Below, piece after piece: positions 11,412-34,452 of a stretch of DNA of 64,000 nucleotides. The translations under genes and the position numbers were made by a program. The stretch comes from a virus (lineage: Duplodnaviria > Caudoviricetes). The stretch is from the IMG/VR virus record IMGVR_UViG_3300028048_000054; one strand, written 5' to 3'. Each line of letters opens with the position of its first letter. Positions within the stretch are counted from its first letter, which is position 1. The notes below the pieces were generated by a model that was not told the DNA's origin, did no database searches, and saw only the letters and a list, made by a program, of their open reading frames with translations.

Positions 11412-14378
11412 ATGAAACTTTTAAACCAAATTTTGAACAAGATTAGTTCTAAAAAATTTAACCAAGTACACGATTCTTTAGGGGCTTTGAAATTAATTGC
11501 CTCAGCATTAACATCAGATTCAGACATTTTAAGTTCTTTTTGTGTACTAGCATTTGATGAAGTACCAAACAGAAACTTTACCACAAAAGAATACATTAAC
11601 AGAAAAGCAGATGCTAAAAATGGCTTAAATTTAGTACAAAAACACTTAATCGCCAAGGAAGTATCTAAATTACTTAAAGATGCTTCCGCTTTTTATGACT
11701 CAGAACTGCCAAATTTAATTAAAACCCAAGCAGATTTCAAAAGACCTGAAAATGTAAAAGTATTCAAAACAGCAAAATTTGGTGATGTGGCCTTGATTGA
11801 CAATAAATACCATCTTGTAAACCCATTAACAAAAACAGTAACAGCCGAATACATTGTTTTAGCAGCAGATGCTAATTTCGCTAAATTACACGAACTTATT
11901 GCTAAATACAGAGACGAAAAAGATGTAAAATTAACCGAATTAGACGGTCAAATGGTTTTAACAGGGGCTCCAGAAGTAATTAACGAACTTGAACACCTGA
12001 TTAAAGACATTGGTTACTACTGTGAAGCCGTAGATGAATCAACTGGTGTAGAAGGTGAAATTCCAGAATATTCATTAAAAATTTTTACAGATATGAAACA
12101 AGCAGAACCTGAATTTGATATTGAAAAAGCAGCGGCAAAACATAAACAGGTTGGTGAAGATTCTAAATTTTCATACTGGTTACAATTAGAAGACAACTAT
12201 GAAGATGAGGGGTATTTAGATAGTAAAAAGGTTGGTGACCACGTAGGTTTCTTCTATGTAACAGAAAAAGGAACTCAAGCACCAGCACTATTGGTTTCAC
12301 AATTAGGTTTTTCTGGTGATGGTTTAACAGCACAACGAACCTATCCTATGAAGAGCAAGGAACCAGGAAAGACATATTTGTATGAAGAATATGGTTATAC
12401 CGATGATGATTTTGCCGAAGTATATAATTTCTTAAATGATGGGTTAAAAAGTGTATCTCCTGAAATGAATAAGAAAAATTTAGATGGGTTGACCGTAGAT
12501 AATATTGATGCCACAAACCCAAATTTGGAAAAAGACAATCCAATGTTAAATTCAGAATCCGCAAAGGAAGACGTTGTGGAAAAAACAACATCGGCTCAAG
12601 AAGATATTGATAAATCTGCTGAAGAAAAAATTGATTTTGAAAAAGAATTAATGGACGCTGGAGAATCTGAAGGTGCCAAAGATAAAGTTAATGAAACACA
12701 ATTGGCAATGGGAAAAGAAGTAGAAAAAGAACATACAACCAACCCAGAAATTGCCGAAAAAATCACCAGAGACCACCTTGAAGAAATTCCTGATTATTAC
12801 ACTCACTTAAAAGAAATGGAAGATAATGCGAAGAAAAATGATGCAGTTAAATCTTCCTATGCCCCATTTATGACAGTGGATGCAACAATGAAAGAAGAAA
12901 TTAAAATTTATTCTGGTGACCATTTTATTGGTACTTGTAAAACTATTCAAGCGGCATTTGAAAAGAGTTCTAACGAATTTGCATATGACGGGAATGAGGG
13001 TGCAAGAACTACACATAAAATCTATGAAGATGAAAAAATTACTATCACAGCAGAAGACCAAACAGATGAGTACTTTGTAACACTCTATGTAGGTGGTTTA
13101 GACCAATATCCAGTTCACGGTAAATCAATTAATAAAGAAAAATTAATGGCCGATGCTGATAAAGTAAATTTTGCCGAAACTGAAAGTGAAGAAAATCCTA
13201 GATTAAAAGAGTTTGGTGTAACACTTGCAATGTTGGCAAAAGCAGACGAAGAAGCAACAAAAGTATTAAAAGGCGGTACAGACCCAGAAGGAAAAGCAGA
13301 AGCACCTGTAGAAGCAGCAACAAAAACAGAAGTAACAAAAACAGCAGAAGATGTGGAAGACAATGTTTGGGTTGTTGAAAAAACAAGTGCACCTACAATT
13401 GATGACCAATTAACATTAGATATTTTCTATGTTGTAAATAAAAATACACACGTAGTTGCTCACGATGCAGGTTTTGAACCTTTCCTTTTTCCAACACAGG
13501 AAGATGCACAGAAACACGCAGATAAATTAAATAGTCAAAAAGAAGCATCAGCAAAACCAGAAGTAAAAAAAGAAGCAGGTGAATCTTATGGTTGGGTAGT
13601 TAATTCCGAAGATGCCTGGAATAAACTTATGCTTTGGGAAGAAACCGTTGGTGCCGAACAAGCATTAAGAGATGTAGCAAAGGCAATGGGTGACGAAGAG
13701 TTATCAGAGTGTCTCGCTTATATTTTTAGAATGAATGATTTTAAAGAAGGTTGCTCTGATACTGATGATAGTGATGTAGAATCTGCTAAAAAAGAAAACA
13801 TTGAAAAGAAAGCAGATGATGAACTTAAACAATTCGATATGAAACAAGAGTTAGATGGTCAGAAAGAGTTTGAAAAACAAGATGACTTTTCTCAAGTTTC
13901 AGTTCCAGAAGAAAAAGAAGATACATCAGAAGTAACAGAAACAATGGAAGCCAAACCAGAAGAAACAAAGGGTGAATCATTTTCAGCGTCAGAATTTGGA
14001 AATAATATGGCTTATATTCAACAAAATAAACCAGAAGAATTTAAGTCAATTATGAACAATTTGAAACAACTAATGGTAGGTGACCAACAACCAATTTATG
14101 ACTTTTTAGAGAACTGGGCTTCTCATAATTTCCAAGATTTTACAGCAATGACCAGAGAAGACCCCACCTACGCAAGACACTCACAGTATCAAGAACAATT
14201 AAAAAATAATGTTCTTCCAAAATTAAAAGAAATGTCTGAATATAAACAGGCAATGGAAGAAAAAGTGTCTGCGGAAAAAGGTAATGTAGAGGCTTCTGTA
14301 AGAGAATATGATTCTTCTGACCCAGAAGATGCCGCTGTATACAACCATAATGGAGAAGACGAAGGGGAAGAGGATTAA
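11412..14378 (+). CDS. large acidic modular protein, probable internal head/cargo polyprotein; contains a DUF5661-like module
   Basis: QLAMGKEVEKEHT..PEIAEKITRDHLEEIPDYYTHLKEME at about 12690-12821. Many KxA/VxA motifs separate globular blocks. Confidence 0.6.
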   Translation: MKLLNQILNKISSKKFNQVHDSLGALKLIASALTSDSDILSSFCVLAFDEVPNRNFTTKEYINRKADAKNGLNLVQKHLIAKEVSKLLKDASAFYDSELPNLIKTQADFKRPENVKVFKTAKFGDVALIDNKYHLVNPLTKTVTAEYIVLAADANFAKLHELIAKYRDEKDVKLTELDGQMVLTGAPEVINELEHLIKDIGYYCEAVDESTGVEGEIPEYSLKIFTDMKQAEPEFDIEKAAAKHKQVGEDSKFSYWLQLEDNYEDEGYLDSKKVGDHVGFFYVTEKGTQAPALLVSQLGFSGDGLTAQRTYPMKSKEPGKTYLYEEYGYTDDDFAEVYNFLNDGLKSVSPEMNKKNLDGLTVDNIDATNPNLEKDNPMLNSESAKEDVVEKTTSAQEDIDKSAEEKIDFEKELMDAGESEGAKDKVNETQLAMGKEVEKEHTTNPEIAEKITRDHLEEIPDYYTHLKEMEDNAKKNDAVKSSYAPFMTVDATMKEEIKIYSGDHFIGTCKTIQAAFEKSSNEFAYDGNEGARTTHKIYEDEKITITAEDQTDEYFVTLYVGGLDQYPVHGKSINKEKLMADADKVNFAETESEENPRLKEFGVTLAMLAKADEEATKVLKGGTDPEGKAEAPVEAATKTEVTKTAEDVEDNVWVVEKTSAPTIDDQLTLDIFYVVNKNTHVVAHDAGFEPFLFPTQEDAQKHADKLNSQKEASAKPEVKKEAGESYGWVVNSEDAWNKLMLWEETVGAEQALRDVAKAMGDEELSECLAYIFRMNDFKEGCSDTDDSDVESAKKENIEKKADDELKQFDMKQELDGQKEFEKQDDFSQVSVPEEKEDTSEVTETMEAKPEETKGESFSASEFGNNMAYIQQNKPEEFKSIMNNLKQLMVGDQQPIYDFLENWASHNFQDFTAMTREDPTYARHSQYQEQLKNNVLPKLKEMSEYKQAMEEKVSAEKGNVEASVREYDSSDPEDAAVYNHNGEDEGEED

Positions 14379-15079
14379 TGGAAGTAATTAAAGTAAAGAC
14401 AATTCAAGAATTGCCAGATGCAGTAAGAGATGAGATTAGAAGGCTTTATCTCGAAGACGGGATGAGCCCAATTCTCATTATCAAACAAATCGAAAAGAAT
14501 TTTGGATATGCTTTACCAGGTCTTCATACTTTAGTTCAATATATCAAAACATTGAAACCAGAGTTGTCAAAGGAACCAGAATTATCAGTAGAACTTCCAG
14601 ACGACAATGAAGAACCAAAACCAACAGAATTAGCCCCATTTACAGGTAAGTCAACAACAATCGACATCTCATCAGTTAAATCTCAAAATGAAACACTTAA
14701 AGAATTATTAAAACATAAAATTGAATACTTACAAAATAAATCATTAAGTGAAGAGTTTGATAAAGATTCAGAACAGATTTTACAGAGATACATTGTTGAG
14801 TTCTCAAAATTAACACAGAACGAAGTCAAAATTAAAGACGAGTTCAAAGATTCAGATAAAGTAGCACTTACTGATGTAAAATACTATATCAACAAAATAA
14901 TGTCCAGTGTTAGAATTTGTCTATCAAAACACTGCCCAAAAGAAGTTGATAGTATATTTAAAGATTTAAAAATACAATTAGATTATGCGCTCCGTGATAT
15001 AGTGGACCCGCACATATATTCAAGTCAGGCCAGTATAGATTACGAGCAAAATTTAAAGGAAAAGGAAAATGAAAAATAA
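14378..15079 (+). CDS. possible terminase small subunit / N-terminal HTH protein
   Basis: IQELPDAVRDEIRRLYLEDGMSP..IIKQI resembles the DUF3486/Mu gp27-like HTH, followed by helical coiled segments. Confidence 0.45.
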   Translation: MEVIKVKTIQELPDAVRDEIRRLYLEDGMSPILIIKQIEKNFGYALPGLHTLVQYIKTLKPELSKEPELSVELPDDNEEPKPTELAPFTGKSTTIDISSVKSQNETLKELLKHKIEYLQNKSLSEEFDKDSEQILQRYIVEFSKLTQNEVKIKDEFKDSDKVALTDVKYYINKIMSSVRICLSKHCPKEVDSIFKDLKIQLDYALRDIVDPHIYSSQASIDYEQNLKEKENEK

Positions 15080-16526
15080 ATTTGATGTAAGATACCAATT
15101 CACAAAAATTGCACGTGACTTATACAACGTGTATGATTCCACCACAAATACTGGTGCGTTTCTTAACACAAAAGACTTATGTGACGATTTAGTCCAAAAG
15201 CGTGGTGGTGTAGCCCTCACACAAGACATTTATGATATGCTTGAAGGTGCTGGCAATGGTCATACTTTTGGCATTACAGAAAGTGCGTTAGAAATTAATA
15301 AAGCAGCAAGTGCAGACGGTATTGAACCTTGGAAATTGGCAGAAGTAGATGGCAAAGAAGTATTTGTATCTGCTTCAACTGGTTTAGAAGTAGAAGATGA
15401 TGATAAACTAACAAAAAAAGCATCATTAAATAAACCCGTTCATACATATAAGGTAGCAATTCATACAGGTACATTAGCAAAAACAGCCAGAGCGCACGAT
15501 ATTCTAATTGGTGCTGGGTATACTGATGAAAATATGTATATTAATCCAGCCAACCCAGATACTGTAGTAGTAACGGTACAAGATGATAAATGCCCATCAC
15601 AAGTTCAAAAAGCAATGTGTGATAAAATGAACGGCGGTTATGTAGATGTAACAGCAGATGACATTGAGTGCTGCCACGATTTCTGCCCTTGTGGTTGTGA
15701 GCCTTTTGACTACCCAGATATGAAAGCAGATGAGTTTGTGTTGATTATTCCTAACAACAAACCTATGTTCGCAACAAGTGCAGATTCATTAAGAGATTAT
15801 GCTACAGCAAACAATTTTGATAATTTTAAAGTATGTGCTGCCGATGGTTCTTCAGTATATGATTCAGCAATGAGAGATGCTATTAAAGAAATTGATGAAG
15901 CAATGCCACAAAATCAAAAAACAGCAGAACAGACATACAAAATTCGCCTTAAAAAAGAGCACGAACAAGATGCCCCAGAATTGGCTGGTAAAGTATTAGA
16001 ATGGACTATGCCACAAATTTTAGAGGAAATTAATAAGGACCACAGTGACCAATGGACTAATTATGATGCTTCAGATTGGCAAGAAGGGTTAAATGAGTGG
16101 ACTTGGTATGAACCAGTAGAAGAAAAAACAGCAGACTTAACAACTGATAAAACTGTGTTTGAAGACGAAAATACTGGAGAAGTTTTTACCAAAGAACAAT
16201 TGGACGCGGACCCAAATAAAGCAAACAGAACACTGAAAACTCACGAAGTAAATTCTCAATACATTAATGATATGTTCAAAGAAGCATCAACAATTGAACT
16301 TTCTTTAGCACAAAAGAATTTATTAAGAGCAGCATTTCACTACTGTGGTTTTGAAAAAGTAGCCTACTTATCTGAAGATTCTTTCTCAATTAAAGCAGGT
16401 GACGCAGTAATTACAGTAGATAATGACAAAGCATCATCTTTACCATTTGCCTTATTCAATGATGTGGCATTAGGTGAAGATAGCAAAGAAAAAGAAGATT
16501 TAAAATCCGATTCAATTTTGGGGTAG
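15069..16526 (+). CDS. acidic modular protein, probable internal head protein
   Basis: KIA, KAA, KKAS, KTA x3, KEA and KVA motifs. Trp-rich module WTMPQILEEINKDHSDQWTNYDASDWQEGL lies between two KTA sites. Confidence 0.6.
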   Translation: MKNKFDVRYQFTKIARDLYNVYDSTTNTGAFLNTKDLCDDLVQKRGGVALTQDIYDMLEGAGNGHTFGITESALEINKAASADGIEPWKLAEVDGKEVFVSASTGLEVEDDDKLTKKASLNKPVHTYKVAIHTGTLAKTARAHDILIGAGYTDENMYINPANPDTVVVTVQDDKCPSQVQKAMCDKMNGGYVDVTADDIECCHDFCPCGCEPFDYPDMKADEFVLIIPNNKPMFATSADSLRDYATANNFDNFKVCAADGSSVYDSAMRDAIKEIDEAMPQNQKTAEQTYKIRLKKEHEQDAPELAGKVLEWTMPQILEEINKDHSDQWTNYDASDWQEGLNEWTWYEPVEEKTADLTTDKTVFEDENTGEVFTKEQLDADPNKANRTLKTHEVNSQYINDMFKEASTIELSLAQKNLLRAAFHYCGFEKVAYLSEDSFSIKAGDAVITVDNDKASSLPFALFNDVALGEDSKEKEDLKSDSILG

Positions 16527-16530
16527 TAAA

Positions 16531-17265
16531 ATGCCAGAAGAAAGAAAAAACCAAGACACCTATTCAAATGGTGACACAAGTTTTAAAGAAGATAACCAAA
16601 ATAAACGCTGGAAGGGTATTAAGCAAGACCCGAGAAGTGGTAAATTCATCGTTTATATTACAGAATCTTCTGAACGCTTATTTGATGATATTAATAGTGC
16701 TGTAGACTTTATGGTACAGGCATCATATGGTTATGCAATTGAAAAGACAGCAGGTGCCCCAGAATTTGGTGGTGTTGAGCGTGGTCAAGATAATTTAGAG
16801 GGTGTAAAACAAGTAACTATTAAAAGAAAATTGGTGTTAGATAAAGCAACTGGGAAATGGAAAGTTAAAGAAAGTACCAGAACTGATATGGTTGAGAATG
16901 ACCAAGAAGCAGCAAAAAATACTTATACCAATATTGAAGATGCTAAAGACCAGGCTGAAGCAGTTGTTCCAGTAGACCAATACTTAGAGGAACAACAAGA
17001 GGAAGCAAAACAAAAACAGGAACAACAAAAAGATACAAAAGATAAACCTGTTGAAGAAAATGTTGAAGTAGAATCAGCATTGAAAGACTTCCAGCCAGTA
17101 GCAAAATGTGGTCATTGTGGTTGTGCAATTTACCCATATTCAATCAGTGATGAGGCATTTGACAGACAACAATTGGCTGATGCATATTGCCCTGCTTGTG
17201 GTTATGGTTTAGGTGAAGCACAATCTAATGAGCAATCAGTAGACAATTTAATCAAAGGCTATTAA
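16531..17265 (+). CDS. hypothetical head-region protein with C-terminal Zn ribbon
   Basis: CGHCGC...CPACG; VQAS, EKTAG and VESA motifs. Confidence 0.6.
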   Translation: MPEERKNQDTYSNGDTSFKEDNQNKRWKGIKQDPRSGKFIVYITESSERLFDDINSAVDFMVQASYGYAIEKTAGAPEFGGVERGQDNLEGVKQVTIKRKLVLDKATGKWKVKESTRTDMVENDQEAAKNTYTNIEDAKDQAEAVVPVDQYLEEQQEEAKQKQEQQKDTKDKPVEENVEVESALKDFQPVAKCGHCGCAIYPYSISDEAFDRQQLADAYCPACGYGLGEAQSNEQSVDNLIKGY

Positions 17266-17267
17266 TA

Positions 17268-17573
17268 ATGAATAGAGACTATTTTGAAATCTTATCACTC
17301 CTAGCGGGTGGAAATGCAGAGAAGATGGCTGATATGTTTTTAATGTACAAAGCATATACTGGCAGAGATTATGAGCATTTCAAGAAAGCGGTGCATACAG
17401 TAGTTATGTATGGGTTAGTGGAAAGATTAGATATGTCTCTTCCTTTATTTACAGGTAGTGCACGAGTCAAACTTACCAAAAGAGGTTTTGATTCATTAGA
17501 TACATATGAAGAAGGATTCTATAAGGGCACCGAAGAGGGATTATTTATAGACTCCGAATTTTTAGGTGTGTAA
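17268..17573 (+). CDS. winged-helix DNA-binding protein
   Basis: FKKAVHTVVMYGLVER...VKLTKRG is a wHTH wing signature. Confidence 0.55.
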   Translation: MNRDYFEILSLLAGGNAEKMADMFLMYKAYTGRDYEHFKKAVHTVVMYGLVERLDMSLPLFTGSARVKLTKRGFDSLDTYEEGFYKGTEEGLFIDSEFLGV

Positions 17574-17574
17574 A

Positions 17575-20424: not shown

Positions 20425-20449
20425 GAGAAGAATTAATACGAGGAAAATT

Positions 20450-22717: not shown

Positions 22718-22735
22718 TTTGGAGATTTAACACAT

Positions 22736-23857: not shown

Positions 23858-23859
23858 CT

Positions 23860-24213
23860 ATGGCAGACTTTGAGATTGAAAATGTGAACCCAGAAGATGT
23901 TTACTCCAACAAGGAACTCCAAGATAACTACACAAAACTGTCTATTAATGGTGAAACTGTTGCGGTAATTATTCCTTTTCACAAATCTCAAGCACCACAA
24001 TCTGATGAAAAAGTGGTAAATATTTCAGAGTTAATTCGTGAAGAAGAAAGTAACAACGAAGTAGTGCCAGAAGAGCAGGATACAGAAAACAAAGAACGTG
24101 GTGATTTCAGAAAGAGATTACTTGAAAAAGGACATACGGTGGACGTTCCAGATGATGGTAATCAAGTTTATACTAATTCCTCGTTTGAATTAACCACCAT
24201 TGATAAATTATAA
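23860..24213 (+). CDS. acidic hypothetical protein ending in FELTTIDKL
   Basis: Start at MADFE; C-terminal motif shared with 17575..20424. Confidence 0.6.
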   Translation: MADFEIENVNPEDVYSNKELQDNYTKLSINGETVAVIIPFHKSQAPQSDEKVVNISELIREEESNNEVVPEEQDTENKERGDFRKRLLEKGHTVDVPDDGNQVYTNSSFELTTIDKL

Positions 24214-24224
24214 GGTGAATTGAT

Positions 24225-25055
24225 ATGGATACGAAAAAGAGCAGAAGTTGTTATAATTTAGCCATTGTAAAGAAAGGAAGTAGATTTGATATTGTCAGAT
24301 ACAACAATGGTTTTGACAGAGAACCAGTTACTATTTTACGTAACGTGGACAAAAATGAAATTAATTCCAAATTCCAAAGAGCAATTAAACTTATTGGAAG
24401 TACAATGAGTTTATTTAGTGTCTTTATTCGCCCATTTGATAAAAATCAATTGGTTGAGTTGGTATTAATGTTGGAAGATTCTGGAATCGCACAGGGTGAT
24501 ATTAAAATACAGGCCAATGGAACCGTGTATTTTAAGATGCAAGGCGAAGATGATAAATATGTGCGTGATAATATTGAATCATTATTAAGAGAGAATAACT
24601 TTGATTTTGATTCAGATATGATTACAGTGGCCCGTGGTGATGCTATGGAACCAACACCAGTTAAAAAAGCATCAGTACAACCTATGGAACCAGTTAAAAA
24701 AGAAGTAGTAAAAACTTCAAATTTAACGGCAGAGGAACAAGAAGAACTGGAAACAATTCAAATGTACCCAGAACTTATGGCCAATCCAGAATTGAAAGCA
24801 AAGTATGAAGAATTGATGAAGAAGTCTGGTTCTACCGTACAACCCTCTCCATCGATGGATGAAAATGACATTGACCCTATTAATACTGTTACTCCTAAAG
24901 TTAATAAGGCAGAACAATTTCTAACTTCAACACCAAACAAATATGACAGTGGTGAGAAGTTAGTACAGGCAATGTTGGACAATGGAATTTCTGTAGAAGA
25001 AATTAAAGAGTGCTATAAAAATAAACCTGAATTGTTAAAATCAGCACTCCAATAG
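24225..25055 (+). CDS. hypothetical head-region protein
   Basis: 276-aa ORF, AAGGTG SD; KKAS, VKTS, KKSG and LKSA motifs. Confidence 0.6.
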   Translation: MDTKKSRSCYNLAIVKKGSRFDIVRYNNGFDREPVTILRNVDKNEINSKFQRAIKLIGSTMSLFSVFIRPFDKNQLVELVLMLEDSGIAQGDIKIQANGTVYFKMQGEDDKYVRDNIESLLRENNFDFDSDMITVARGDAMEPTPVKKASVQPMEPVKKEVVKTSNLTAEEQEELETIQMYPELMANPELKAKYEELMKKSGSTVQPSPSMDENDIDPINTVTPKVNKAEQFLTSTPNKYDSGEKLVQAMLDNGISVEEIKECYKNKPELLKSALQ

Positions 25056-26712: not shown

Positions 26713-26939
26713 GCACTATATCACACATTAAACACGTAGTAAGAACTGTTCAACCAGTTTTAGAAGAAGTAACACAAGCAACAATGAACTGCCTAGAAGA
26801 GTTGCGTGCCTGTGGCATTTTTACCGAAGAAATGCAAGATTTAGCGAACGCAATTGAGTGTTTGGAAAATACACACAGTAATTTAAACGACAGATTAATT
26901 GCTTTCAGAGAATATGAAGATTTGAACGAGGATGACTAA
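26709..26939 (+). CDS. small helical hypothetical protein
   Basis: ATGA overlap with the terL stop; stop overlaps the portal start. Confidence 0.55.
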   Translation: MSTISHIKHVVRTVQPVLEEVTQATMNCLEELRACGIFTEEMQDLANAIECLENTHSNLNDRLIAFREYEDLNEDD

Positions 26940-28651
26940 TGCCTAAGAATTTAATTACGGGTAAAAAGAGTACACCTATTAGTAAAAAATTTAGTAAGTT
27001 TGCTAACCCTACATTTATTACAAAACATAATAATATTTTAAGTGGAACTGGTTTTGGTAAAGAAGCTTTTTACGATACAGAGTCCACGATTCCTAATTTT
27101 TACACACCAGAATTAACACCTGATACTTGGTTACTGCCTCGTTCCAGAGCCGAGATTTTAAGATGGTGTCGTTTATTCTTTAACTTAGACCCGTACATTA
27201 ACTCGATTTTAACAATGCACGCTCAATATCCAGTGTGCAACTTCAGATTAAAATATAAAGACAAAGAAACTGAAGCATTTTTTAATAGAAAACTTTTTGA
27301 TAATAAAGAGTTCAGTTGGATTGATTTCTTGGAACAAGTAATGCTCTCATACTGGAAACTTGGTGAAGCAGTGGTATGGGGTGATTTTAACGAAGCCAAA
27401 GGAACCTGGAATAGTTTCTCATTAATTGACCCATCTTTAATTGAATATAAAGAAGACCCGATGTCTGGTGAAGTAGAGATGTCAATTATTCCTACAAGAG
27501 AATTGAAACAGATGCTCGCCGAGGGGTTAAAACAGGGTAGAAGTGATATTCCAGTAGAATATATTCGGTGTGTACAAGAAAACCAAAAGATTCCATTAGA
27601 CGCAACTGGAACAGAAGCAAACTACTTAACTGGTAAAAAATATTCTCCTGCCAAAGTATTTATGCTTGCTCGTAAAACAGACCCAGGTGCTACTCGTGGT
27701 ACTCCAATTATTCAATCACTTTTCAAAACACTTATCTATTCTGATAAGATTAGACTTGCTCAAATTGCTATCGCCGACAGACTTCACTTGCCAATGGAAA
27801 TTTGGTCAATTGGTGAATATACAGGCGACCCAAATACATCAATTATTCCAGATGATGGGATGATTGCTAATGTCCGTGAAGCAATTAGAGAAGCCACAAT
27901 GCAACCTCCATTTTCAATTTTCGTTCCACCTTACATTAAATATGAAGCAGTAGGTGTGAACGGTAAATTATTGTCAGTCTATGAAGATTTAGGATATGTT
28001 GAGAACTGTATCTTCGTAGCATTGGGTGTAAATAAGAATTTAATTTTAGGTCAAGGTCCCTCTTTCTCATCAAGTAAACAGACATCATTATTCAAATTGA
28101 TTAAGATGTATAAAATGATGCGCTTGAAATTGGAAGCCTTTATTAAACGGTATATTATTCTTCCAATTGCTAAAGCCAATGATGTTAAAGATGAGTATGG
28201 TGACTATGTAGTACCAGACATCGATTGGGAAGAAAGTTTAAACCCAGAACAAGATGTAGAGAAATTTAACAATATCCTCAAATTGTGGGATAAAGGTTTG
28301 GTTTCCACTACTACATTATATGAATACTTCCCTGGCAAATTAGATATTAACCTTGAAAAACAAAGACTGGAAGAAGAAAAATTAACAGTATTTGATAAAG
28401 GTACAGATAGATTAGGAAGTAAAGCACAACGCGCTGATTTGAAGAATAATGATGCAAATAAGGGTAAGAATCCAACTCCAAGTGATGGCTCTAAACCAGC
28501 CGAAAACTTACCACCCCCATTGGAAGGTGGTGTAAAGGACGAGGGTGAAGGCCCAGCAGGTCCAGATGCTCCTGGTGGTGAAGATAAAGCACCAGAGGGT
28601 GGTGAAGGACCAGAAGCCCCTGATACGAACGCAGGACCAGAAGGAGAATAA
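26939..28651 (+). CDS. portal protein
   Basis: Follows terL. WCRLFF..DPYINS, YWKLGEA, RGTPIIQSLF, IFVALGVNK.LI.G; low-complexity acidic C-tail. Confidence 0.88.
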   Translation: MPKNLITGKKSTPISKKFSKFANPTFITKHNNILSGTGFGKEAFYDTESTIPNFYTPELTPDTWLLPRSRAEILRWCRLFFNLDPYINSILTMHAQYPVCNFRLKYKDKETEAFFNRKLFDNKEFSWIDFLEQVMLSYWKLGEAVVWGDFNEAKGTWNSFSLIDPSLIEYKEDPMSGEVEMSIIPTRELKQMLAEGLKQGRSDIPVEYIRCVQENQKIPLDATGTEANYLTGKKYSPAKVFMLARKTDPGATRGTPIIQSLFKTLIYSDKIRLAQIAIADRLHLPMEIWSIGEYTGDPNTSIIPDDGMIANVREAIREATMQPPFSIFVPPYIKYEAVGVNGKLLSVYEDLGYVENCIFVALGVNKNLILGQGPSFSSSKQTSLFKLIKMYKMMRLKLEAFIKRYIILPIAKANDVKDEYGDYVVPDIDWEESLNPEQDVEKFNNILKLWDKGLVSTTTLYEYFPGKLDINLEKQRLEEEKLTVFDKGTDRLGSKAQRADLKNNDANKGKNPTPSDGSKPAENLPPPLEGGVKDEGEGPAGPDAPGGEDKAPEGGEGPEAPDTNAGPEGE

Positions 28652-28652: not shown

Positions 28653-28781
28653 ATGTTTAAAATTACAGGTTCAGTTAAAAAAATTGAAGTAGTAACACCT
28701 AAACAAGCAGAAGAATTTAACAAAGAGGCTGAAGTAAAAGAAGCCCCAAAAGCAAAAAAAGGTAAAAAACAAGCCAAATAA
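28653..28781 (+). CDS. 42-aa charged peptide with four KxA motifs
   Basis: AAGGAG SD; MFKITGSVKKIEVVTPKQAEEFNKEAEVKEAPKAKKGKKQAK. Confidence 0.6.
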   Translation: MFKITGSVKKIEVVTPKQAEEFNKEAEVKEAPKAKKGKKQAK

Positions 28782-28814: not shown

Positions 28815-28826
28815 GTAAGGGTAAAT

Positions 28827-29856: not shown

Positions 29857-29865
29857 TTAACTAAA

Positions 29866-32800
29866 ATGGCATTTTTAAAATTAGGTTCAACTTTACAGAT
29901 TTTACAACCAAATCAAGTGTTGTATAAAACTGCTTCTAAAGAATTAGATAATGTCGTGGCTGAAAAGAACGACAACTTTACCTATTTCCAAACTATTGCT
30001 CTACACTCTGATGTCCCAAATCTTAATGGGGACATCTTTCCTTTAGATGAATTAAAAAAGTCTTACAAATCATTTATTGGTCGTGGGTTATATTTAGACC
30101 ACAATGCCCAATCAGTGGCAAATGCAGTAGGTAAAGTATTTGATGCTAAGTTAATTGAAATTCCAGGGGCTACAGAAGAAGAGGGGAAATATGGTGTTGT
30201 ATGTCTCTGTGGTGTTGATAAAACAACACACCCAGACATCGCCAAAAAAGTAGCAAGTGGGGTAATTGATAGTGTTTCAATGGGTGCGTCCGTAGGTTCT
30301 TGTACTTGTGGAATTTGTGGTGTAAAATGCTCAACCCCAGAAGAATTTTGTGTACACTTACAACATCAAGGGCAAGTAGACCCAGATACTGGTAAGAAAT
30401 GTACATCAATCAACCACGATGTATCTTTCACCGAATTATCATTAGTAGGTGTTCCAGCAGACCCATACGCCAAAATGCAAAAAGTATTCGCAGACTTCGT
30501 AGGTGGTATAACAAAAATTGCTGGTGAAGAAAAACAATTTTTAGAAAAGTTCTCATTTAGTATTCCTTGTGGTAATGAGAAACTTTGCGAAATGATTTAT
30601 AACCTTTTAGACGGTTATAAAAAACAAGGAATTATGGACTTGTCGGCTGATGGGTCTATATTAAAACTTTCTGTAGAAGCCAAAAGCGAAGCAGAAGCAT
30701 TAAAAAAATTAGAGTCAATCAGCCAAGAACAGGGGTTGGACGTTGAAAAACCTCTGAAAAAAGAGGAGAAATCAATGTCAGAAGAAATTAAACCTGTTGA
30801 AGAACAAGTAGAAAAAACTGCTGATGTAGATGAAGCAGCAGCGACCGAAGAAGCACAAAAAATTATCGACAATTTTGAACCAGTTCGTCTTGAGATGGAT
30901 GGTGGTGATGGTACATATGCATCAGTTTTAGTTGGAGATAAAAATTCAGATTTTACAGCCTGGATTGATGTTACAATTAAAAATGATGATGTAGAGTGCG
31001 ACTGGAACCAATTTATTACAAACTTACGTGATACAAACGAAGTAATTAATAAAAAAGTTCGTGATGATAATAAAGTATTTGAATTAGCAACAAGTGAAGC
31101 AATTCAAACTTTACAAGATAAAAATATTATTACTCAAGATGAGAAAGGTTTTTGGCATTGGGCAACCAAACAAGCCGAAGTAAACCCAGATTTGCAAGAA
31201 GTACAATCTTCAAATACTCAATCAAATGAGGTAAAAGACGTGAAAGCAGAAGAAAAGAAAGAAGAAGTAAAACAGGAAAAAACTGCTGCTATGGTCCCAC
31301 CATTCACTGACACAAAAGCACCTGCTGCTCCTGTAGCAGACCCCATTGTGGCCCCAGTGAAAGAACCAGAAGCCAAGCCAGAAATTCCTGCTCCTGCCCC
31401 AGAAGTGAAACCTCTGAAAGATGCTCCATTGGCTGATGCTCCTATGGGTGATAAACCTTTAGGTGACAAACCTATGGCAGATAAACCAGCGGTCCCACCA
31501 ATGGCAGACGGAAAAGAGAAATTTGAAGAAGTTAAACCAGAAGCACCTGCCGACAAAATTAAGACAACACAAGATGCTGCTAAAGCATTATTAGATGCCT
31601 TAAAAGCAGGTGAAAATGCGGACCTCAAAGCCCTTGAAGATGTCATTAATTTCTTAAAAGCAGATAAAAAAGAAGCACCTGCTAAAGAAGAAAAGAAAGA
31701 CGATAAAAAGGACGAAAAGAAAGACGACAAAAAAGAGGACGCTCCTAAAGCAGAAGAAAAGAAAGACGCTCTTAAAGAAGATAAAAAGGACGATAAAGAA
31801 CCTGCTAAGGAAGAAAAGAAAGACGACAAACCTGCTGAAGAAAAGAAAGCGGAAGCCGAACCTGCTCAAGAAGTAGTGGCCGAACCTACAACCGAAGAAA
31901 TTCCTGTAGAAGCCAAAGAAGAGAAGGAAGAAGCAAAAGAAGTGGAATCTGAAGCCAAACCCGCTGAAGAAGTGAAAGAAGTAGAAGCGGCAGCAGATAC
32001 CAAAGAAGAAGAAAAGAAAGAAGCAAATTGTGAAGCCGAAGTGAAACCCACTTTTGCAAATGTAACAAGAGTTTCTTTACTCAAAACCGCAAATATTTTA
32101 GACAGCAAATGGGTATTCCACTTGAAAGGTACAAACAAAGTTGCTTGCTTGAGCATCAAAAACTTGTTACCTGGCGTAGCGGAAAAAGTCGCCTATTTAA
32201 CTTCTAAAGAATTTTACAACGAGATGATGAGTACATTAGAAAAACACGCCGAACTCAATGAAGGTGCCGTAAAAGAAATTACAGCAAACTTCAACGAAAA
32301 AGTGAAAGTGGATTCTGACGAAAAGAAATCTCAAATTGCGAAAGCCACCAATAAAGTTAAAGTAGAAACAGATGCGAAGAAAGTATCCGATACTGCTTCC
32401 AAAGTAACAGAATCTTTAACTGATGATGGTAAAGCACAAAAACAGGACAAGGTGAACTCCAAAGAAGATGCTGGGGCAATTGAATCAGCGTCTAAAAAAG
32501 CACCTGCTGAAACTGATATTAAAGTAGATGCGGCTATGGAATCTAAACTGAAACAAGTAACAGCAGCCTTAGAAGCCAAAGAAGCAGAACTTAACCAATT
32601 GAAGTTACAGCAAGCATTAGAAGCCAAAACTGCTAAAGCACGGAACATTGTTTCTATGTCAATCAAAGCAGGGTTGGTGAAATGCAATGAACAATTTAGA
32701 CAGGAAGAATTACTCAAACAAGCATCACCTGTAAAAGCAAAAGAAGAAGCGATGAAACGCACTGCTGATGCTATGGTGAAAGACTTATTGGGTATGTCCG

Positions 32801-32949
32801 ATGAAGAATTGGATAGACAAGCATCTTATCTGTCAAATTTTAAGGTTGAGGCGGAAGTAAAACAGCTTAAACCGATTAAAATAGAAGCCTCATACAACGA
32901 AAGTAATGAGGAAAGTATCATCAAAGCATTAGCCGCCGAGATGATGTAA
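29866..32949 (+). CDS. prohead maturation protease fused to scaffolding protein
   Basis: PNLNGDIFP..EL..SYKSF.G..LYLDH...AVGKV, VSMG, CxxC insert, FTELSLVGVPADPYA. Long charged Pro/Lys/Glu-rich region and C-terminal coiled coil; precedes the capsid genes. Confidence 0.88.
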   Translation: MAFLKLGSTLQILQPNQVLYKTASKELDNVVAEKNDNFTYFQTIALHSDVPNLNGDIFPLDELKKSYKSFIGRGLYLDHNAQSVANAVGKVFDAKLIEIPGATEEEGKYGVVCLCGVDKTTHPDIAKKVASGVIDSVSMGASVGSCTCGICGVKCSTPEEFCVHLQHQGQVDPDTGKKCTSINHDVSFTELSLVGVPADPYAKMQKVFADFVGGITKIAGEEKQFLEKFSFSIPCGNEKLCEMIYNLLDGYKKQGIMDLSADGSILKLSVEAKSEAEALKKLESISQEQGLDVEKPLKKEEKSMSEEIKPVEEQVEKTADVDEAAATEEAQKIIDNFEPVRLEMDGGDGTYASVLVGDKNSDFTAWIDVTIKNDDVECDWNQFITNLRDTNEVINKKVRDDNKVFELATSEAIQTLQDKNIITQDEKGFWHWATKQAEVNPDLQEVQSSNTQSNEVKDVKAEEKKEEVKQEKTAAMVPPFTDTKAPAAPVADPIVAPVKEPEAKPEIPAPAPEVKPLKDAPLADAPMGDKPLGDKPMADKPAVPPMADGKEKFEEVKPEAPADKIKTTQDAAKALLDALKAGENADLKALEDVINFLKADKKEAPAKEEKKDDKKDEKKDDKKEDAPKAEEKKDALKEDKKDDKEPAKEEKKDDKPAEEKKAEAEPAQEVVAEPTTEEIPVEAKEEKEEAKEVESEAKPAEEVKEVEAAADTKEEEKKEANCEAEVKPTFANVTRVSLLKTANILDSKWVFHLKGTNKVACLSIKNLLPGVAEKVAYLTSKEFYNEMMSTLEKHAELNEGAVKEITANFNEKVKVDSDEKKSQIAKATNKVKVETDAKKVSDTASKVTESLTDDGKAQKQDKVNSKEDAGAIESASKKAPAETDIKVDAAMESKLKQVTAALEAKEAELNQLKLQQALEAKTAKARNIVSMSIKAGLVKCNEQFRQEELLKQASPVKAKEEAMKRTADAMVKDLLGMSDEELDRQASYLSNFKVEAEVKQLKPIKIEASYNESNEESIIKALAAEMM
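31660..31860 (+). repeat. low-complexity KEEKKDDK-type coding repeats in the scaffold
   Basis: APAKEEKKDDKKDEKKDDKKED...PAKEEKKDDKPAEEKK; 5-aa P-x-x-D-K repeats also at about 31420-31490. Confidence 0.7.
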
Positions 32950-32969
32950 TTTAAGGAGAACAAACTAAT

Positions 32970-33494
32970 ATGGCAATTAAAGTAATTTCGCCTGTAAACT
33001 TAGACGAAGGCCACTTAGTAAAACTCGATGCCAACGGCCAGATGGTAGCAGCCGATGCAGTATTGGGTGGACAAGTGGTAAAATTAGTAACCTCTGCCGA
33101 TGCACAATACGGTGGTGAGTTACACATTGAAGTGTCCAAGGGTACTGACGCATTGGCCACAGCAACACCTTATGGTTTCTGCTACAAAGCCTCTGTCGCT
33201 CAACCTGAAAACAACCTTTATATTCCTTTCAATCAATATAAAGCCCCTCTGAACAGACAATCTGTGGTATTAACCAAAGGTTTCCGTGCAGAATTTTGGA
33301 ACGATGGTACTGGTGCAGTATTTGCTGATGACGTAATTGGTGCACAAGCAGGTACAGCATTATACATCAATGCCAATGGTCTTTTAACAACAACCGCTGG
33401 TTCTGCTGACACAGTAGGCTCATTAGTAGTCGCTTCTGTAGAAGTAGCTCCTGCTGATGCAAACGGTGTGTTAGTAGCCAAAGTGGAATTATAA
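32970..33494 (+). CDS. head decoration/cement protein
   Basis: Between scaffold and MCP; GTALYINANGLLTT beta-tulip-like motif; strong SD. Confidence 0.7.
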   Translation: MAIKVISPVNLDEGHLVKLDANGQMVAADAVLGGQVVKLVTSADAQYGGELHIEVSKGTDALATATPYGFCYKASVAQPENNLYIPFNQYKAPLNRQSVVLTKGFRAEFWNDGTGAVFADDVIGAQAGTALYINANGLLTTTAGSADTVGSLVVASVEVAPADANGVLVAKVEL

Positions 33495-33513
33495 GAGTTA
33501 GGAGAATCTGAAA

Positions 33514-34452
33514 ATGGAAAACTTTGCTAAAATGAACACAATTGAAAAAGAAGCAGCATTAAACGCAATGTACGCTTCTCCAAACGGTTTGCAAAAAATT
33601 GCTGCCGTAATGTTGAACCCTATCATTCGTGATTTATTACACGAAGGTCGTGGTCGTCAATGCTTAGCCATCGATAAACTTCAACAAGGTATGGATGCAA
33701 CATACGATTCTGATATTTCAGCCAAAGCCTGCGTATGCAGTGCTGACGGTGTACCTCAATTATCAGTAATTGAATCAGGTCGTTTCATTGTACCAACCTT
33801 CCCTATCGGTGTACAAGCATCAATCAAATGGGTAGAATCAAACTATCGTAAATTTGATATGATTAACCGCACACAAGAACGTGCGAAATCAGCCTTACAA
33901 TCAATCGAAGATAAAAGAATCTTTGATTTAATTGCTTTCTCATCAAAGCAACACTATGCTGCACAACAAACAACAGAAACTGGCCGTGTAACCCTGTTAG
34001 ACTTAGCGAAAGCCAAAGCCAAACTCGAAAAAGGCCGTGTACCTGCTGCTAAAATGATTATGACACCAATCCGTGCAGTAGACGTGGAATTACTTTACAA
34101 TGGTGCTACAGCAATGGGTCCTCTGTTCTTACCTCAAACCTCTGAAGCAAACGTAAACAAAGGTTTAGGCAAAAACATCTTGGGCTTAGACATTGTAACA
34201 GTACCAGATGGTGACACAGTAACTCGTGTAATCAACGGTAAAGAAGTGATTGAAGACCTTCCTATTATCTCGGATAACGAAATCTATGTCTTAGGCCGCC
34301 CAGAAATGGTAGGTATTATGACAATTCGTCAAGACGTGTTAGTAGAAACCCAAAAATGGGTACGTGGTTTAGAAGACTTGTTCGCAATCTATGAAATCGT
34401 AGGTTTCGCAGTCCGCTATGCCAAAGGTCAAATCAACGTACACGTTAAATAA
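33514..34452 (+). CDS. major capsid protein (HK97 fold)
   Basis: Synteny and highly expressed codon style. KIA.VM.NPI...L, VPTFPI, FDMINR.QERAK..LQ..ED..IF, YEIVGF.V motifs. Confidence 0.88.
   Translation: MENFAKMNTIEKEAALNAMYASPNGLQKIAAVMLNPIIRDLLHEGRGRQCLAIDKLQQGMDATYDSDISAKACVCSADGVPQLSVIESGRFIVPTFPIGVQASIKWVESNYRKFDMINRTQERAKSALQSIEDKRIFDLIAFSSKQHYAAQQTTETGRVTLLDLAKAKAKLEKGRVPAAKMIMTPIRAVDVELLYNGATAMGPLFLPQTSEANVNKGLGKNILGLDIVTVPDGDTVTRVINGKEVIEDLPIISDNEIYVLGRPEMVGIMTIRQDVLVETQKWVRGLEDLFAIYEIVGFAVRYAKGQINVHVK

What the first reader, a model, noticed from the sequence alone, without database searches (positions are those of the whole stretch)
11412..33560. Candidate virion cargo polyprotein system: small modules bracketed by K-x-A / V-x-A sites across the head region
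Seen: the acidic ORFs from 11412 to 25055, the portal N-terminus (SKFA, GKEA), a 42-aa peptide (KQA, KEA, KEA, KQA), the MuF-like protein (QKTAA), the protease-scaffold (YKTAS, TKIAG, EKTAD, TKQAE, EKTAA, LKTAN, EKVAY, EKHAE, VEAE, IEAS) and the MCP N-terminus (EKEAA) carry many (K/V/I)-x-(A/S) motifs. These sit in linkers between 50-120-aa aromatic-rich globular blocks. By eye they are much less conspicuous in tail proteins. Established: prohead proteases cleave short motifs in head proteins (T4 gp21 at I/L-x-E, phiKZ gp175 at S/A/G-x-E), and T4 packages internal proteins such as the anti-restriction protein IPI. Inference: these ORFs are polyproteins packaged with the scaffold and cut after Ala into many small acidic peptides that are injected with the DNA. 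This would be a plug-in payload platform, possibly for anti-defence or host-takeover effectors.
Basis: partly seen in the sequence, partly recalled or inferred. Interest (0 to 1): 0.9.

Follow-up and report, generated by a model that had tools for sequence, protein, structure and literature searches.

The report
Protease-cut cassette polyproteins in phage head
An uncultured large phage strings swappable small protein modules into long acidic proteins, joined by a short peptide (Lys/Val-x-Ala, then Ser or an acidic residue) that looks like the cutting site of the phage's own head-maturation protease; the modules are therefore probably loaded into the capsid and cut apart there, though no cut has yet been observed.

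Summary
The enriched word is [K/V]-x-A-[S>D/A/E] with a hydrophobic residue two positions before the K/V. I-x-A and Ser at the Ala position are not enriched.

- **Window:** K-x-A-[SADE] occurs 25 times in the acidic block against 9 expected (z 5.3 after local-composition control). Tail proteins show no excess.
- **Relatives:** the excess recurs in four of five relatives (weak in the most distant). In two complete relative genomes the five most enriched of 200 and 225 proteins all lie in the acidic block, the protease-scaffold or the MCP.
- **Protease family:** extensions of 82 diverse members of this protease family show [KV]-x-A-S 161 times against 68 expected.
- **Conservation:** K-x-A is the best-conserved of 92 X-x-Y pairs.
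- **Modules:** about 14 independent large indels start and end at sites, including one hotspot with at least five unrelated cassettes, each flanked by the motif.
- **Protease:** it has the T4 gp21/assemblin fold and is fused to the scaffold. A conserved site follows the protease domain (also in phage G), and a (V/I)-x-A|S lies about 19 residues from the C-terminus, as in herpesvirus UL26.

Cleavage, packaging and injection are inferred. Anti-defence function is untested. Only four of the ten acidic ORFs carry a clear excess. The scan has noted analogous polyproteins in other phages, mostly T4-type with hydrophobic-x-Glu.

The parts
11412..14378 (+). Acidic ORF1, 988 aa: beads-on-a-string polyprotein with 14 [KV]xA[SADE] sites vs 4.9 expected
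   Evidence: orthologs are 775-1420 aa with modules present or absent at junctions
12687..12824 (+). DUF5661 module inside ORF1; in relatives it always starts after K-x-A|(E/D)EKI(D/N)FEK and sits at another position in L039
13779..13814 (+). Recurring junction peptide ESAKKENIEKKA (|D); in relatives, copies of it separate modules X, Y and Z
14378..15079 (+). Acidic ORF2, 233 aa; no motif excess
15069..16526 (+). Acidic ORF3, 485 aa: 9 sites vs 2.2 expected; K and A of seven K-x-A sites are (nearly) invariant in 26 homologs
15927..16133 (+). 69-aa Trp-rich acidic cassette between QKTA|E (15918-15926) and EKTA|D (16125-16133). It is absent from a 98%-identical homolog and replaced by at least four unrelated cassettes in others. 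Its flanks share 13 identical nt
16531..17265 (+). Acidic ORF4, 244 aa; no individual excess
17268..17573 (+). Acidic ORF5, 101 aa; N-terminal AEKMA|D at residue 21
17566..20424 (+). Acidic ORF6, 952 aa (relatives start at the ATG at 17575)
18415..18444 (+). Tag copy 1, FELTTIEKIA (|E)
18445..20166 (+). 574-aa optional module (probably helical repeats), precisely absent from the 373- and 375-aa orthologs of L036 and L039
20137..20166 (+). Tag copy 2, FEFTDINKLA (|D); only 24 of 42 nt identical to copy 1
20450..22717 (+). Acidic ORF7, 755 aa: 8 sites vs 2.9; conserved N-terminal FNKEA|A (residue 17) and KLA|S (residue 45)
22736..23857 (+). Acidic ORF8, 373 aa: conserved N-terminal YKQA|G (residue 7) and KKQA|D (residue 24)
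23848..24213 (+). Acidic ORF9, 121 aa: ends with the tag FELTTIDKL-stop (24184-24210); orthologs in L036 and G2 run on past the tag into extra modules
24225..25055 (+). Acidic ORF10, 276 aa; no individual excess
25084..26712 (+). Large terminase
26939..28651 (+). Portal protein; N-terminal KFA|N and KEA|F are weak candidates
28653..28781 (+). 42-aa Lys-rich ORF with KQA|E, KEA|E, KEA|P and KQA|K; small ORFs at the same place in L033 and L035
29866..32949 (+). Prohead protease (about aa 34-210) fused to scaffold, 1027 aa; 20 sites vs 9.3
29920..29934 (+). N-terminal site LYKTA|S (Ala23); an equivalent site is present in all six phages
30508..30522 (+). Release-site analogue ITKIA|G (K217 and A219 invariant in six phages; same position in phage G gp19)
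30823..31176 (+). 118-aa globular module inside the scaffold, between VEKTA|D (Ala319) and ATKQA|E (Ala437); relatives diverge here
32881..32889 (+). Maturation-site analogue IEA|S, 19 residues from the C-terminus (VQA|S in L033, VNA|S in L035)
32970..33494 (+). 174-aa Ala-rich protein at the position of phage G's decoration protein gp26
   Evidence: position only
33514..34452 (+). Major capsid protein (31% identical to phage G gp27); candidate N-terminal site IEKEA|A at 33541-33555, conserved in four phages

Best explanation
The window is the head region of an uncultured myovirus of about 160-170 kb. Its prohead serine protease has the HK97 S78 / T4 gp21 / herpesvirus assemblin fold and is fused to the scaffold.

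I propose that this protease cuts after Ala in the word hydrophobic-x-(K/V)-x-A|(S>D/A/E). Under this reading it frees itself from the scaffold at ITKIA219|G, trims its own N-terminus, removes the last 19 residues of the scaffold at IEA1008|S, and probably removes 14 residues from the MCP.

The long acidic proteins encoded just upstream of the terminase would be further substrates, at least ORFs 11412, 15069, 17566 and 20450. They would be co-assembled into the prohead core and cut at the motif-bearing junctions into separate modules.

Because each junction carries the same peptide, recombination can insert, delete or swap a module and still leave a cuttable protein. That would explain the cassette turnover among relatives.

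Shown here: motif enrichment, specificity, conservation, coincidence with module boundaries, and association with the protease family.

Inferred: cleavage, presence in the prohead, and the fate of the fragments. My odds for the fate are about 45% retained and delivered with the DNA, 35% cleared like scaffold, and the rest mixed.
For: (1) Spacing- and order-specific excess in the acidic block and head proteins only. It replicates in G2 and G3 and in L033 and L035, where K-x-A ranks 3rd of 233 and 1st of 255 without being chosen beforehand.

(2) Blind genome-wide ranking: the top 5 of 200 (G3) and top 5 of 225 (G2) proteins are all in the acidic block, the protease-scaffold or the MCP.

(3) Purifying selection: K-x-A is the best-conserved of 92 X-x-Y pairs (63% vs a median of 35%), and Ala inside the motif is conserved 73% vs 45% outside. 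K and A are invariant in 26 ORF3 homologs.

(4) A context PSSM trained only on distant upstream blocks separates K-x-A sites of head proteins it never saw from tail and other sites (p 0.013 to 0.0005).

(5) Module boundaries lie at sites. The raw count is 68 of 88 ends vs 14 expected. My consolidation gives about 23 of 28 ends for about 14 independent events, against a null of 0.16.

(6) Peptide-level rather than DNA-level conservation of the tag: 24 of 42 nt identical.

(7) Protease identity: PHROG head maturation protease at E 6e-20, conserved LDH / SVSMG / ELSLVxxPADP motifs, and T4 gp21 as the top fold hit of 48,161 chains (Z 8.2, rmsd 2.7 A over 119 aa; VZV protease Z 5.4).

(8) Sites flank the protease domain in all six phages and in phage G gp19. 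The junction lies in the lowest-confidence segment of the model.

(9) Family-wide: 60 of 92 diverse members have a site within 45 aa after the domain end vs about 24-27 expected, although some of these hits are a conserved V-F-A inside the domain's last helix. Their extensions hold [KV]xAS 161 times vs 68 (z 13), while T4-type A-x-E and [ILV]-x-E are not enriched.

(10) N-terminal sites occur in 16 of 55 candidate substrates vs 13 of 417 other proteins (p 3e-9).

(11) Precedent: PrV assemblin sites are YLQA-T and VQA-S, and the latter cut removes a C-terminal MCP-binding tail (PMC4498786). SPN3US gp245 cuts propeptides at multiple A-x-E sites with Ser preferred at P1' (PMC10052503).
Against: - No cleavage, virion proteomics or expression data exist for this phage or its close relatives.
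- The motif was refined after looking at the window, though it was then tested on other genomes.
- Relatives are homologous, so pooled z-values overstate independence.
- Six of the ten acidic ORFs show no individual excess.
- Several motif matches lie inside predicted secondary structure or inside the protease and MCP folds and cannot all be cut.
- The signal is weak in the most distant locus, L034 (z 1.8).
- Both AlphaFold models are of low confidence (pLDDT 58 and 51).
- The MCP N-terminal site is not conserved in phage G.
- Strongly acidic proteins are unusual companions for packaged DNA.
- A sigma-70-like promoter precedes the block, and I found no late-promoter signature, so expression timing is unknown.
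Confidence: 0.65

Rival explanations
1. The proteins are substrates of the head protease, but they are auxiliary core or scaffold components. They would help build the prohead, be chopped into small acidic pieces and be expelled before or during DNA packaging, so nothing is delivered to the host.
For: They are very acidic (pI 4.3-5.2), like scaffolds. Sites are dense in some N-terminal regions, e.g. ORF 15069 residues 1-118. Multiple cuts are thought to ease clearance of propeptides in SPN3US (PMC5694885). The block lies in one tight gene string with the terminase and portal genes.
Against: Optional modules differ between near-identical phages (98% identity with and without a cassette; 574-aa module present or absent). 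That pattern is unexpected for parts needed in assembly and typical of accessory, host-facing proteins. These proteins diverge much faster (40-60% identity) than TerL, portal and MCP (85-90%).
Confidence: 0.3
2. The motif-bearing junctions are recombination linkers: conserved boundary sequences that let modules shuffle, with no proteolysis. The proteins would act as intact multidomain proteins.
For: The ORF 15069 cassette is flanked by 13 identical nucleotides. The ORF 11412 junction recurs as a 12-14-aa repeat. Module exchange exactly at the repeats is what homologous recombination would give.
Against: The two ORF 17566 tag copies share only 24 of 42 nt, with many synonymous changes. The motif is also conserved where no module exchange occurs, at the protease-scaffold junction (including phage G), near the scaffold C-terminus, at the MCP N-terminus and at the N-termini of ORFs 20450 and 22736. 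It is enriched across a 2,400-member protease family and absent from tail-fibre-like and other proteins.
Confidence: 0.1
3. The peptide is a docking or targeting signal (for scaffold, portal or a chaperone such as the phage Cpn10 system) rather than a cleavage site.
For: The longer tags (FELTTIxK(I/L)A, ESAKKENIxKxA) are larger than a minimal protease site. T4 uses a short capsid-targeting sequence (PMC9026906, listed).
Against: Only four positions plus P5 are shared across all contexts. The placement directly after the protease domain and about 19 aa from the scaffold C-terminus mirrors known autoprocessing sites. A stop codon substitutes for the site in ORF 23848.
Confidence: 0.08
4. Chance or composition: K, A, S, D and E are common in these proteins, and the motif was picked after the fact.
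For: K-x-A alone ranks only 6th of 273 pairs in the window. In the protease-scaffold, K-x-A is no more enriched than K-xx-A.
Against: Window-shuffle and rearrangement controls. Replication in four of five other genomes (weak in L034) and in 82 diverse family members. A flat 97,000-aa control set, top conservation rank and boundary coincidence.
Confidence: 0.02

Closest known systems
T4 internal proteins IPI-III and Alt with prohead protease gp21; phiKZ and SPN3US ejection / inner-body proteins with gp175 / gp245
   Same: Head-internal proteins carry the cognate protease's short motif and lose N-terminal propeptides. Propeptides are cut at several sites, and the protease processes itself (PMC10052503, PMC5694885, PMC9026906). 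The protease fold is shared.
   Different: The motif ends in Ala (K/V-x-A|S), not Glu (I/L-x-E, S/A/G-x-E, A-x-E). Here the motif separates many unrelated modules within single long ORFs. There is no sequence similarity to IPs or inner-body proteins. No shared N-terminal targeting sequence was found. Nothing has been shown experimentally.
Herpesvirus UL26 protease-scaffold (assemblin) with release and maturation sites
   Same: An N-terminal protease is fused to the scaffold. One site lies directly after the protease domain and one near the scaffold C-terminus, removing a short tail. Cutting is after Ala, with V at P3 and S at P1' at the maturation site (PrV YLQA-T and VQA-S; PMC4498786; compare IEA|S, VQA|S and VNA|S).
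   Different: Lys is the main P3 residue here. The scaffold part carries extra globular modules and about 20 sites. Further substrate proteins are encoded in a separate 13.6-kb block. An in-frame scaffold-only product like UL26.5 was not examined.
Polyvalent proteins of phages and conjugative elements (Iyer et al. 2017, PMC5512222)
   Same: Long multi-module proteins are encoded beside portal and terminase genes and predicted to be packaged and delivered. They show extensive module shuffling.
   Different: Polyvalent proteins are defined by recognisable enzymatic or effector domains, and any processing is ascribed to their own peptidase domains. Here the modules are orphans (only DUF5661 is recognised) and are separated by a motif linked to the prohead protease.
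Protease-punctuated cargo polyproteins noted earlier in this scan in other phages (e1-5362820, e1-5689061, e1-5704478, e1-5322423, e1-5730267, e1-5659907)
   Same: The architecture and reasoning are the same: modules joined and reshuffled at the presumed head-protease motif (unchecked AI notes).
   Different: Those are mostly T4-type heads with hydrophobic-x-Glu. This case has an S78/phage-G-type protease-scaffold fusion and an Ala-ending, herpesvirus-like motif.

Membership tests
Prohead serine protease of the HK97 S78 / T4 gp21 / herpesvirus assemblin fold | Sequence match to family profiles | tested here: met
   phrog_18299 'head maturation protease' at E 5.7e-20 over aa 42-198. Pfam Peptidase_S78_2 matches only at E 0.045, below the cut-off. 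There are 2,426 homologs at E<=1e-3, some annotated as head maturation protease in cultured phages.
Prohead serine protease of the HK97 S78 / T4 gp21 / herpesvirus assemblin fold | Assemblin-like fold | tested here: met
   The best of 48,161 chains is T4 gp21 (5jbl_A; Z 8.2, rmsd 2.7 A, 119 aa aligned, model residues 34-195). VZV protease 1vzv gives Z 5.4. The model is of low confidence (pLDDT 51), so support is moderate.
Prohead serine protease of the HK97 S78 / T4 gp21 / herpesvirus assemblin fold | Conserved catalytic His and Ser | tested here: inconclusive
   D78-H79 and S136/S138 (in SVSMG) are invariant in six phages. Assigning them as catalytic residues rests on motif resemblance, not on a residue-level superposition.
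Prohead serine protease of the HK97 S78 / T4 gp21 / herpesvirus assemblin fold | Gene lies between portal and major capsid protein | tested here: met
Prohead serine protease of the HK97 S78 / T4 gp21 / herpesvirus assemblin fold | Proteolytic activity and mapped specificity | not testable with these tools
   No cleavage mapping was found for this family, including in the phage G papers.
Protease-processed head internal / ejection proteins (T4 IP/Alt, phiKZ, SPN3US type) | Carry the cognate protease's motif, typically near the N-terminus | tested here: met
   16 of 55 candidate substrates vs 13 of 417 others have a site within residues 4-30, and these sites are conserved in ORFs 20450 and 22736. 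The motif itself is inferred, not mapped.
Protease-processed head internal / ejection proteins (T4 IP/Alt, phiKZ, SPN3US type) | Present in proheads or virions and found cleaved | not testable with these tools
Protease-processed head internal / ejection proteins (T4 IP/Alt, phiKZ, SPN3US type) | Shared capsid-targeting sequence | tested here: inconclusive
   No common N-terminal sequence was found. The FELTTIxK(I/L)A tag is shared only by ORFs 17566 and 23848.
Protease-processed head internal / ejection proteins (T4 IP/Alt, phiKZ, SPN3US type) | Sequence homology to known internal proteins | tested here: not met
   No PHROG or Pfam match apart from DUF5661. This is therefore an analogue, not a member.
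Polyvalent proteins (Iyer et al. 2017) | Two to fifteen recognisable effector or enzymatic domains in one polypeptide | tested here: not met
   Only DUF5661 is recognised. Fold and atlas searches gave generic or weak matches.
Polyvalent proteins (Iyer et al. 2017) | Encoded with portal, terminase and head genes | tested here: met
Herpesvirus-type protease-scaffold fusion with R- and M-sites | N-terminal protease fused to scaffold, with a site right after the protease domain | tested here: met
   K217-x-A219 is invariant in six phages, sits at the same position in phage G gp19, and is over-represented across the family. Cleavage is untested.
Herpesvirus-type protease-scaffold fusion with R- and M-sites | Site a few tens of residues from the scaffold C-terminus | tested here: met
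   IEA|S, VQA|S or VNA|S about 19-20 residues from the end in five of six phages; compare PrV VQA-S.
Herpesvirus-type protease-scaffold fusion with R- and M-sites | Separate in-frame scaffold-only product (UL26.5-like) | not tested
   Internal starts were not examined.

The most novel reading that the evidence does not exclude
The 2,400-member phage-G/S78-type protease-scaffold family uses a herpesvirus-like (K/V)-x-A|S rule. Phages that carry it have built on this rule a general 'plug-in' delivery platform: any small protein placed between two copies of the junction peptide is loaded into the capsid, excised and injected. On this reading the hypervariable acidic cassettes seen here would be a rapidly exchanged arsenal of host-takeover or anti-defence mini-proteins.
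Probability: 0.3. Interest if true: 0.85.

Novelty: new variant of a known kind. Interest (0 to 1): 0.7.

Why it matters
If the motif is the cleavage rule, three things follow.

1. It assigns a substrate specificity to a very large, uncharacterised family of phage head proteases. Members occur in phage G, cluster C mycobacteriophages, and Erwinia and Burkholderia jumbo phages. The specificity resembles that of herpesvirus assemblin, which extends the shared ancestry from fold to substrate rule.
2. It lets head-internal proteins be predicted from sequence alone in many uncultured phages.
3. It shows a simple evolutionary device for swapping capsid cargo, namely identical cuttable junctions. The same device could be copied to load chosen proteins into phage heads.

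The hypervariable cassettes are candidates for new proteins that act at the first moments of infection. All of this can be tested directly in cultured relatives.

Tried and rejected
- **Whole genome:** none is held for the window.
- **MCP-based locus scan:** it returned only the same five loci.
- **PDB sequence search with the protease domain:** no hit.
- **Pfam on head proteins:** nothing beyond the terminase ATPase domains.
- **Paralogy among the acidic ORFs:** none by BLASTP.
- **Fold of ORF 15069:** only a generic ferredoxin-like alpha/beta domain (best Z 7.5, within the tool's noise range). Atlas matches all had TM below 0.3 apart from a 73-aa SPOR-like row.
- **ORF 17566 module:** weak helical-repeat leads only (DUF4116, LRV, Ank).
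- **Shared small alpha/beta domain in ORF 15069 and the scaffold:** both models hit the same RAM/ferredoxin entries, but hhalign gave a probability of 0.2%, so I dropped the idea.
- **Common late-promoter motif in intergenic regions:** none found. The promoter and terminator scans were at shuffle level.
- **Welch et al. 1991 (PMC53017):** not held. Two paper searches failed on term length, and one returned off-topic 'assembling' papers.
- **First domain-end regex:** it had the wrong spacing and was corrected.
- **Complex prediction:** not used. The tool advises against enzyme-substrate jobs, and the protease model is poor.
- **Portal N-terminal sites and the 'MuF-like' label for ORF 29071:** considered and not upheld.

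Full report
**What is in the window.** The + strand from 11412 onward is one tightly packed structural gene string of a large myovirus. It holds ten acidic ORFs with almost no database matches (11412-25055; pI 4.3-5.2; the only family hit is DUF5661 inside the first ORF). After these come the large terminase, a 79-aa ORF, the portal, a 42-aa ORF, two small ORFs and a 1027-aa protein whose first ~210 residues are a head-maturation protease. Then follow an Ala-rich 174-aa protein, a major capsid protein 31% identical to phage G gp27, and the tail sheath, baseplate and other tail genes. No gap longer than 40 nt occurs between 11412 and the end of the portal gene. Complete relatives are 158 and 170.5 kb. 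NrdD, NrdG and a Cpn10 gene lie on the other strand.

The contexts pointed to a tighter word. K-x-A followed by S, A, D or E occurs 25 times in the acidic block against 9.2 expected (z 5.3), even when residues are shuffled only within 30-aa windows. Rearranged versions of the same residues are far weaker, and other K/A spacings are flat. Tail proteins show nothing (10 vs 12.4).

Because I refined the word after seeing the window, I tested it elsewhere.
- In two complete relatives (TerL about 85% identical, acidic ORFs only 40-60%), K-x-A is about two-fold and K-x-A-[ADESG] about three-fold over-represented in the orthologous block. The tail genes and the remaining 156-176 proteins are flat.
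- In two more distant loci (TerL 65% and 57% identical), an unbiased scan ranks K-x-A 3rd of 233 and 1st of 255. In the most distant locus (46%) it is weak.
- Pooled position scans give K or V at P3, Ala at P1 and Ser then D/A/E at P1', with a hydrophobic residue at P5. A 97,000-aa control set is flat at every position. Ile at P3 and Ser at P1 are not enriched.
- Ranking every protein of the two complete genomes by excess puts five members of the acidic block, protease-scaffold or MCP in the top five of 200 and of 225.
- In the window the excess is carried by ORFs 11412, 15069, 20450 and 17566, the protease-scaffold and the MCP. The other six acidic ORFs are not individually significant.

**Selection on the sites.** In three-way ortholog alignments, K-x-A is the best-conserved of 92 testable X-x-Y pairs (63% vs a median of 35%). 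Ala inside the motif is conserved 73% of the time vs 45% outside. In 26 homologs of ORF 15069 (down to 46% identity), the K and A of seven sites are invariant or nearly so. A context matrix trained only on the distant upstream blocks scores K-x-A sites of head proteins it never saw higher than those of tail and other proteins (p 0.013-0.0005). Sites within the first 30 residues occur in 16 of 55 candidate substrates vs 13 of 417 other proteins (p 3e-9), and they are conserved in ORFs 20450 and 22736.

**Modules begin and end at the sites.** This is the strongest result.
- *ORF 15069 family.* Short forms have one site (…MPQxx-K-T/Q/K-A-D-LTTD…). Long forms carry at that same spot at least five mutually unrelated cassettes of 55-90 aa. 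Four have a motif copy on both sides; the fifth (P0031/P0032) has only variant, non-matching flanks (KQATA on the left, KPKA on the right in P0031). A 98%-identical homolog lacks the window's cassette.
- *ORF 11412 family.* A recurring junction, ESAK(K/E)EN(I/V)-x-K-x-A|(E/D), separates modules X, Y and Z. These occur as none (window), Z, X+Y or X+Y+Z in four phages. The DUF5661 module always starts right after a site.
- *ORF 17566.* A 574-aa module lies between two copies of the tag FE(L/F)T(T/D)I-x-K-(I/L)-A. Two relatives have exactly the excised form, and a third lacks a 104-aa block bounded by two other sites.
- *ORF 23848.* It ends, by a stop codon, inside the tag one residue before the would-be Ala, whereas two orthologs continue past it into extra modules.
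- *Count.* Across pairwise alignments, 68 of 88 ends of large indels with well-aligned flanks lie within 6 residues of a site vs 14 expected. That count repeats hotspots. My own consolidation gives about 14 independent events with about 23 of 28 ends at a site, against a per-end null of 0.16.
- *DNA level.* The two ORF 17566 tags share only 24 of 42 nt, so the peptide is what is conserved. The ORF 15069 cassette flanks share 13 nt, as expected after a recent recombination.
- *Structure.* In the AlphaFold model of ORF 15069 (pLDDT 58), five of six favoured sites fall in segments with pLDDT below 50. Sites with disfavoured P1' residues sit in helices or strands.

**Link to the protease.** The protease domain matches PHROG 'head maturation protease' (E 6e-20) and weakly matches Pfam Peptidase_S78_2. 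It keeps LDH, SVSMG and ELSLVxxPADP in six phages. Although modelled with low confidence, its best structural match among 48,161 chains is T4 gp21 (Z 8.2, rmsd 2.7 A, 119 aa), and a herpesvirus protease also appears (Z 5.4).

In all six phages an otherwise variable linker right after the domain keeps hydrophobic-x-K-x-A (ITKIA, IKKTA, LRKSA, INKKA, LEKTA, MKKQA). Each protease also has a site within its first ~30 residues. Five of the six have I-E-A|S, V-Q-A|S or V-N-A|S about 19-20 residues from the scaffold C-terminus.

Phage G gp19, only about 36% identical, has GLVKTA|A before the domain and ILEKVA|S immediately after it. Among 92 diverse representatives of the family, 60 have a site within 45 residues after the domain end, vs about 24-27 expected. 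Part of that excess is a conserved V-F-A inside the last helix; a second peak at offset 15-20 is the junction. In the C-terminal extensions of 82 members (67,000 aa), [KV]-x-A-S occurs 161 times vs 68 expected, while T4-type A-x-E and [ILV]-x-E are not enriched.

The layout matches herpesvirus UL26. That protein is a protease-linker-scaffold fusion cut at a release site after the protease and at a maturation site near the C-terminus, which frees the scaffold from the capsid protein. The pseudorabies virus sites are given as YLQA-T and VQA-S (PMC4498786). That (V/L)-x-A|S is the general herpesvirus consensus is my own recollection (Welch et al. 1991), and I could not retrieve that paper.

**Most likely mechanism.** The protease-scaffold assembles the prohead core and then cuts after Ala in hydrophobic-x-(K/V)-x-A|(S/D/A/E). 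This would release the protease, detach the scaffold from the shell and trim the MCP N-terminus (IEKEA14|A, conserved in four phages but not in phage G). The long acidic proteins would be co-assembled substrates cut at their junctions. An in-silico digest of the acidic block gives 57 fragments with a median of 53 aa; 27 of the 32 fragments of at least 40 aa are acidic. Not all matches need be cut.

My probabilities are about 0.75-0.8 that the motif is the protease's site, and about 0.65 for the whole chain (the site, plus these proteins being prohead-internal substrates). The fate of the fragments is open. Cassette turnover between near-identical phages and fast divergence argue for accessory, host-facing cargo. 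Acidity and dense cutting argue for clearance like scaffold.

**Comparison with known systems.**
- The closest systems are T4 IPs/Alt with gp21 and the phiKZ/SPN3US ejection proteins with gp175/gp245, which cut after Glu and cleave propeptides at several sites (PMC10052503, PMC5694885). This case works like them but is not a member, having a different motif, a different protease subfamily and no sequence similarity.
- Polyvalent proteins (PMC5512222) share the multi-module, head-gene-linked layout but are defined by recognisable effector domains, which are absent here.
- I found no published cleavage rule for this protease family, and the phage G papers report particle proteomics without site mapping.
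- The scan itself has noted analogous protease-punctuated polyproteins in several other phages, mostly T4-type with hydrophobic-x-Glu, and one actinobacterial phage with a protease fused to about 19 modules. Those are unchecked notes that I did not test.

**Verdict.** I class it as a new variant of a known kind.

Noticed in passing
L003:11884-14409 (G3 portal, 841 aa); L035:13792-16632: The portal gene of relative G3 carries two intein-like insertions (C…HN|C and C…GN|T boundaries) that the window and G2 lack. The 946-aa portal-position ORF of L035 has precomputed Intein_splicing and HNH hits.
   Followed up: partly
window 35780-36724 (+); L004:417-1397; L038:11523-12182; L039:11253-11912: An HNH homing endonuclease sits between head and tail genes. 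A 42%-identical copy lies just upstream of a TerL ORF that starts at residue ~146 in the near-identical fragments L004 and L005. Another HNH ORF is inserted between the ORF 15069 and ORF 16531 orthologs in L038 and L039. Mobile endonucleases are therefore active in this region.
   Followed up: partly
window 30298-30366 (protease residues ~145-167): A Cys/His cluster (C-x-C-x2-C … C … C-x-H) is inserted in the protease domain between the catalytic-Ser motif and the ELSLV motif. C148, C151, C162 and H164 are invariant in six phages, which suggests a zinc ribbon. Phage G gp19 has a similar cluster.
   Followed up: no
window 10823-11115: Divergent, near-consensus sigma-70-like promoters (12/12 on the minus strand, 11/12 with a TG extension on the plus strand) lie in the 630-nt gap before the acidic block. 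A terminator-like GC-GAA-GC hairpin follows at 11064-11080. Expression timing of the block is therefore unclear.
   Followed up: partly
window 7368-10303 (-) and 1169-2221 (-): Anaerobic ribonucleotide reductase NrdD and its activase NrdG, a Cpn10 co-chaperonin and a BspA-type leucine-rich-repeat protein are encoded here. This points to an anaerobic or facultative host.
   Followed up: partly
window 17566-17575: The listed GTG start of ORF 17566 is probably wrong. Close relatives begin at the ATG three codons later (17575), directly after the stop of the preceding ORF.
   Followed up: partly
L003:5145-7511 (G3 ortholog of ORF 20450): A G3-specific insert of about 35-45 aa with two CxxC pairs (zinc-ribbon-like) lies between KKA|K and KKA|A sites.
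   Followed up: no
window 34453-34500: A GC-rich hairpin (GGGAGAGGG…CCCTCTCTC) lies directly after the MCP gene and is probably a terminator or RNA-stability element.
   Followed up: no
proteins P0065-P0209: Most representatives of this protease family are 700-2,460 aa long, so an N-terminal head protease with a very long C-terminal extension is the rule rather than the exception.
   Followed up: partly
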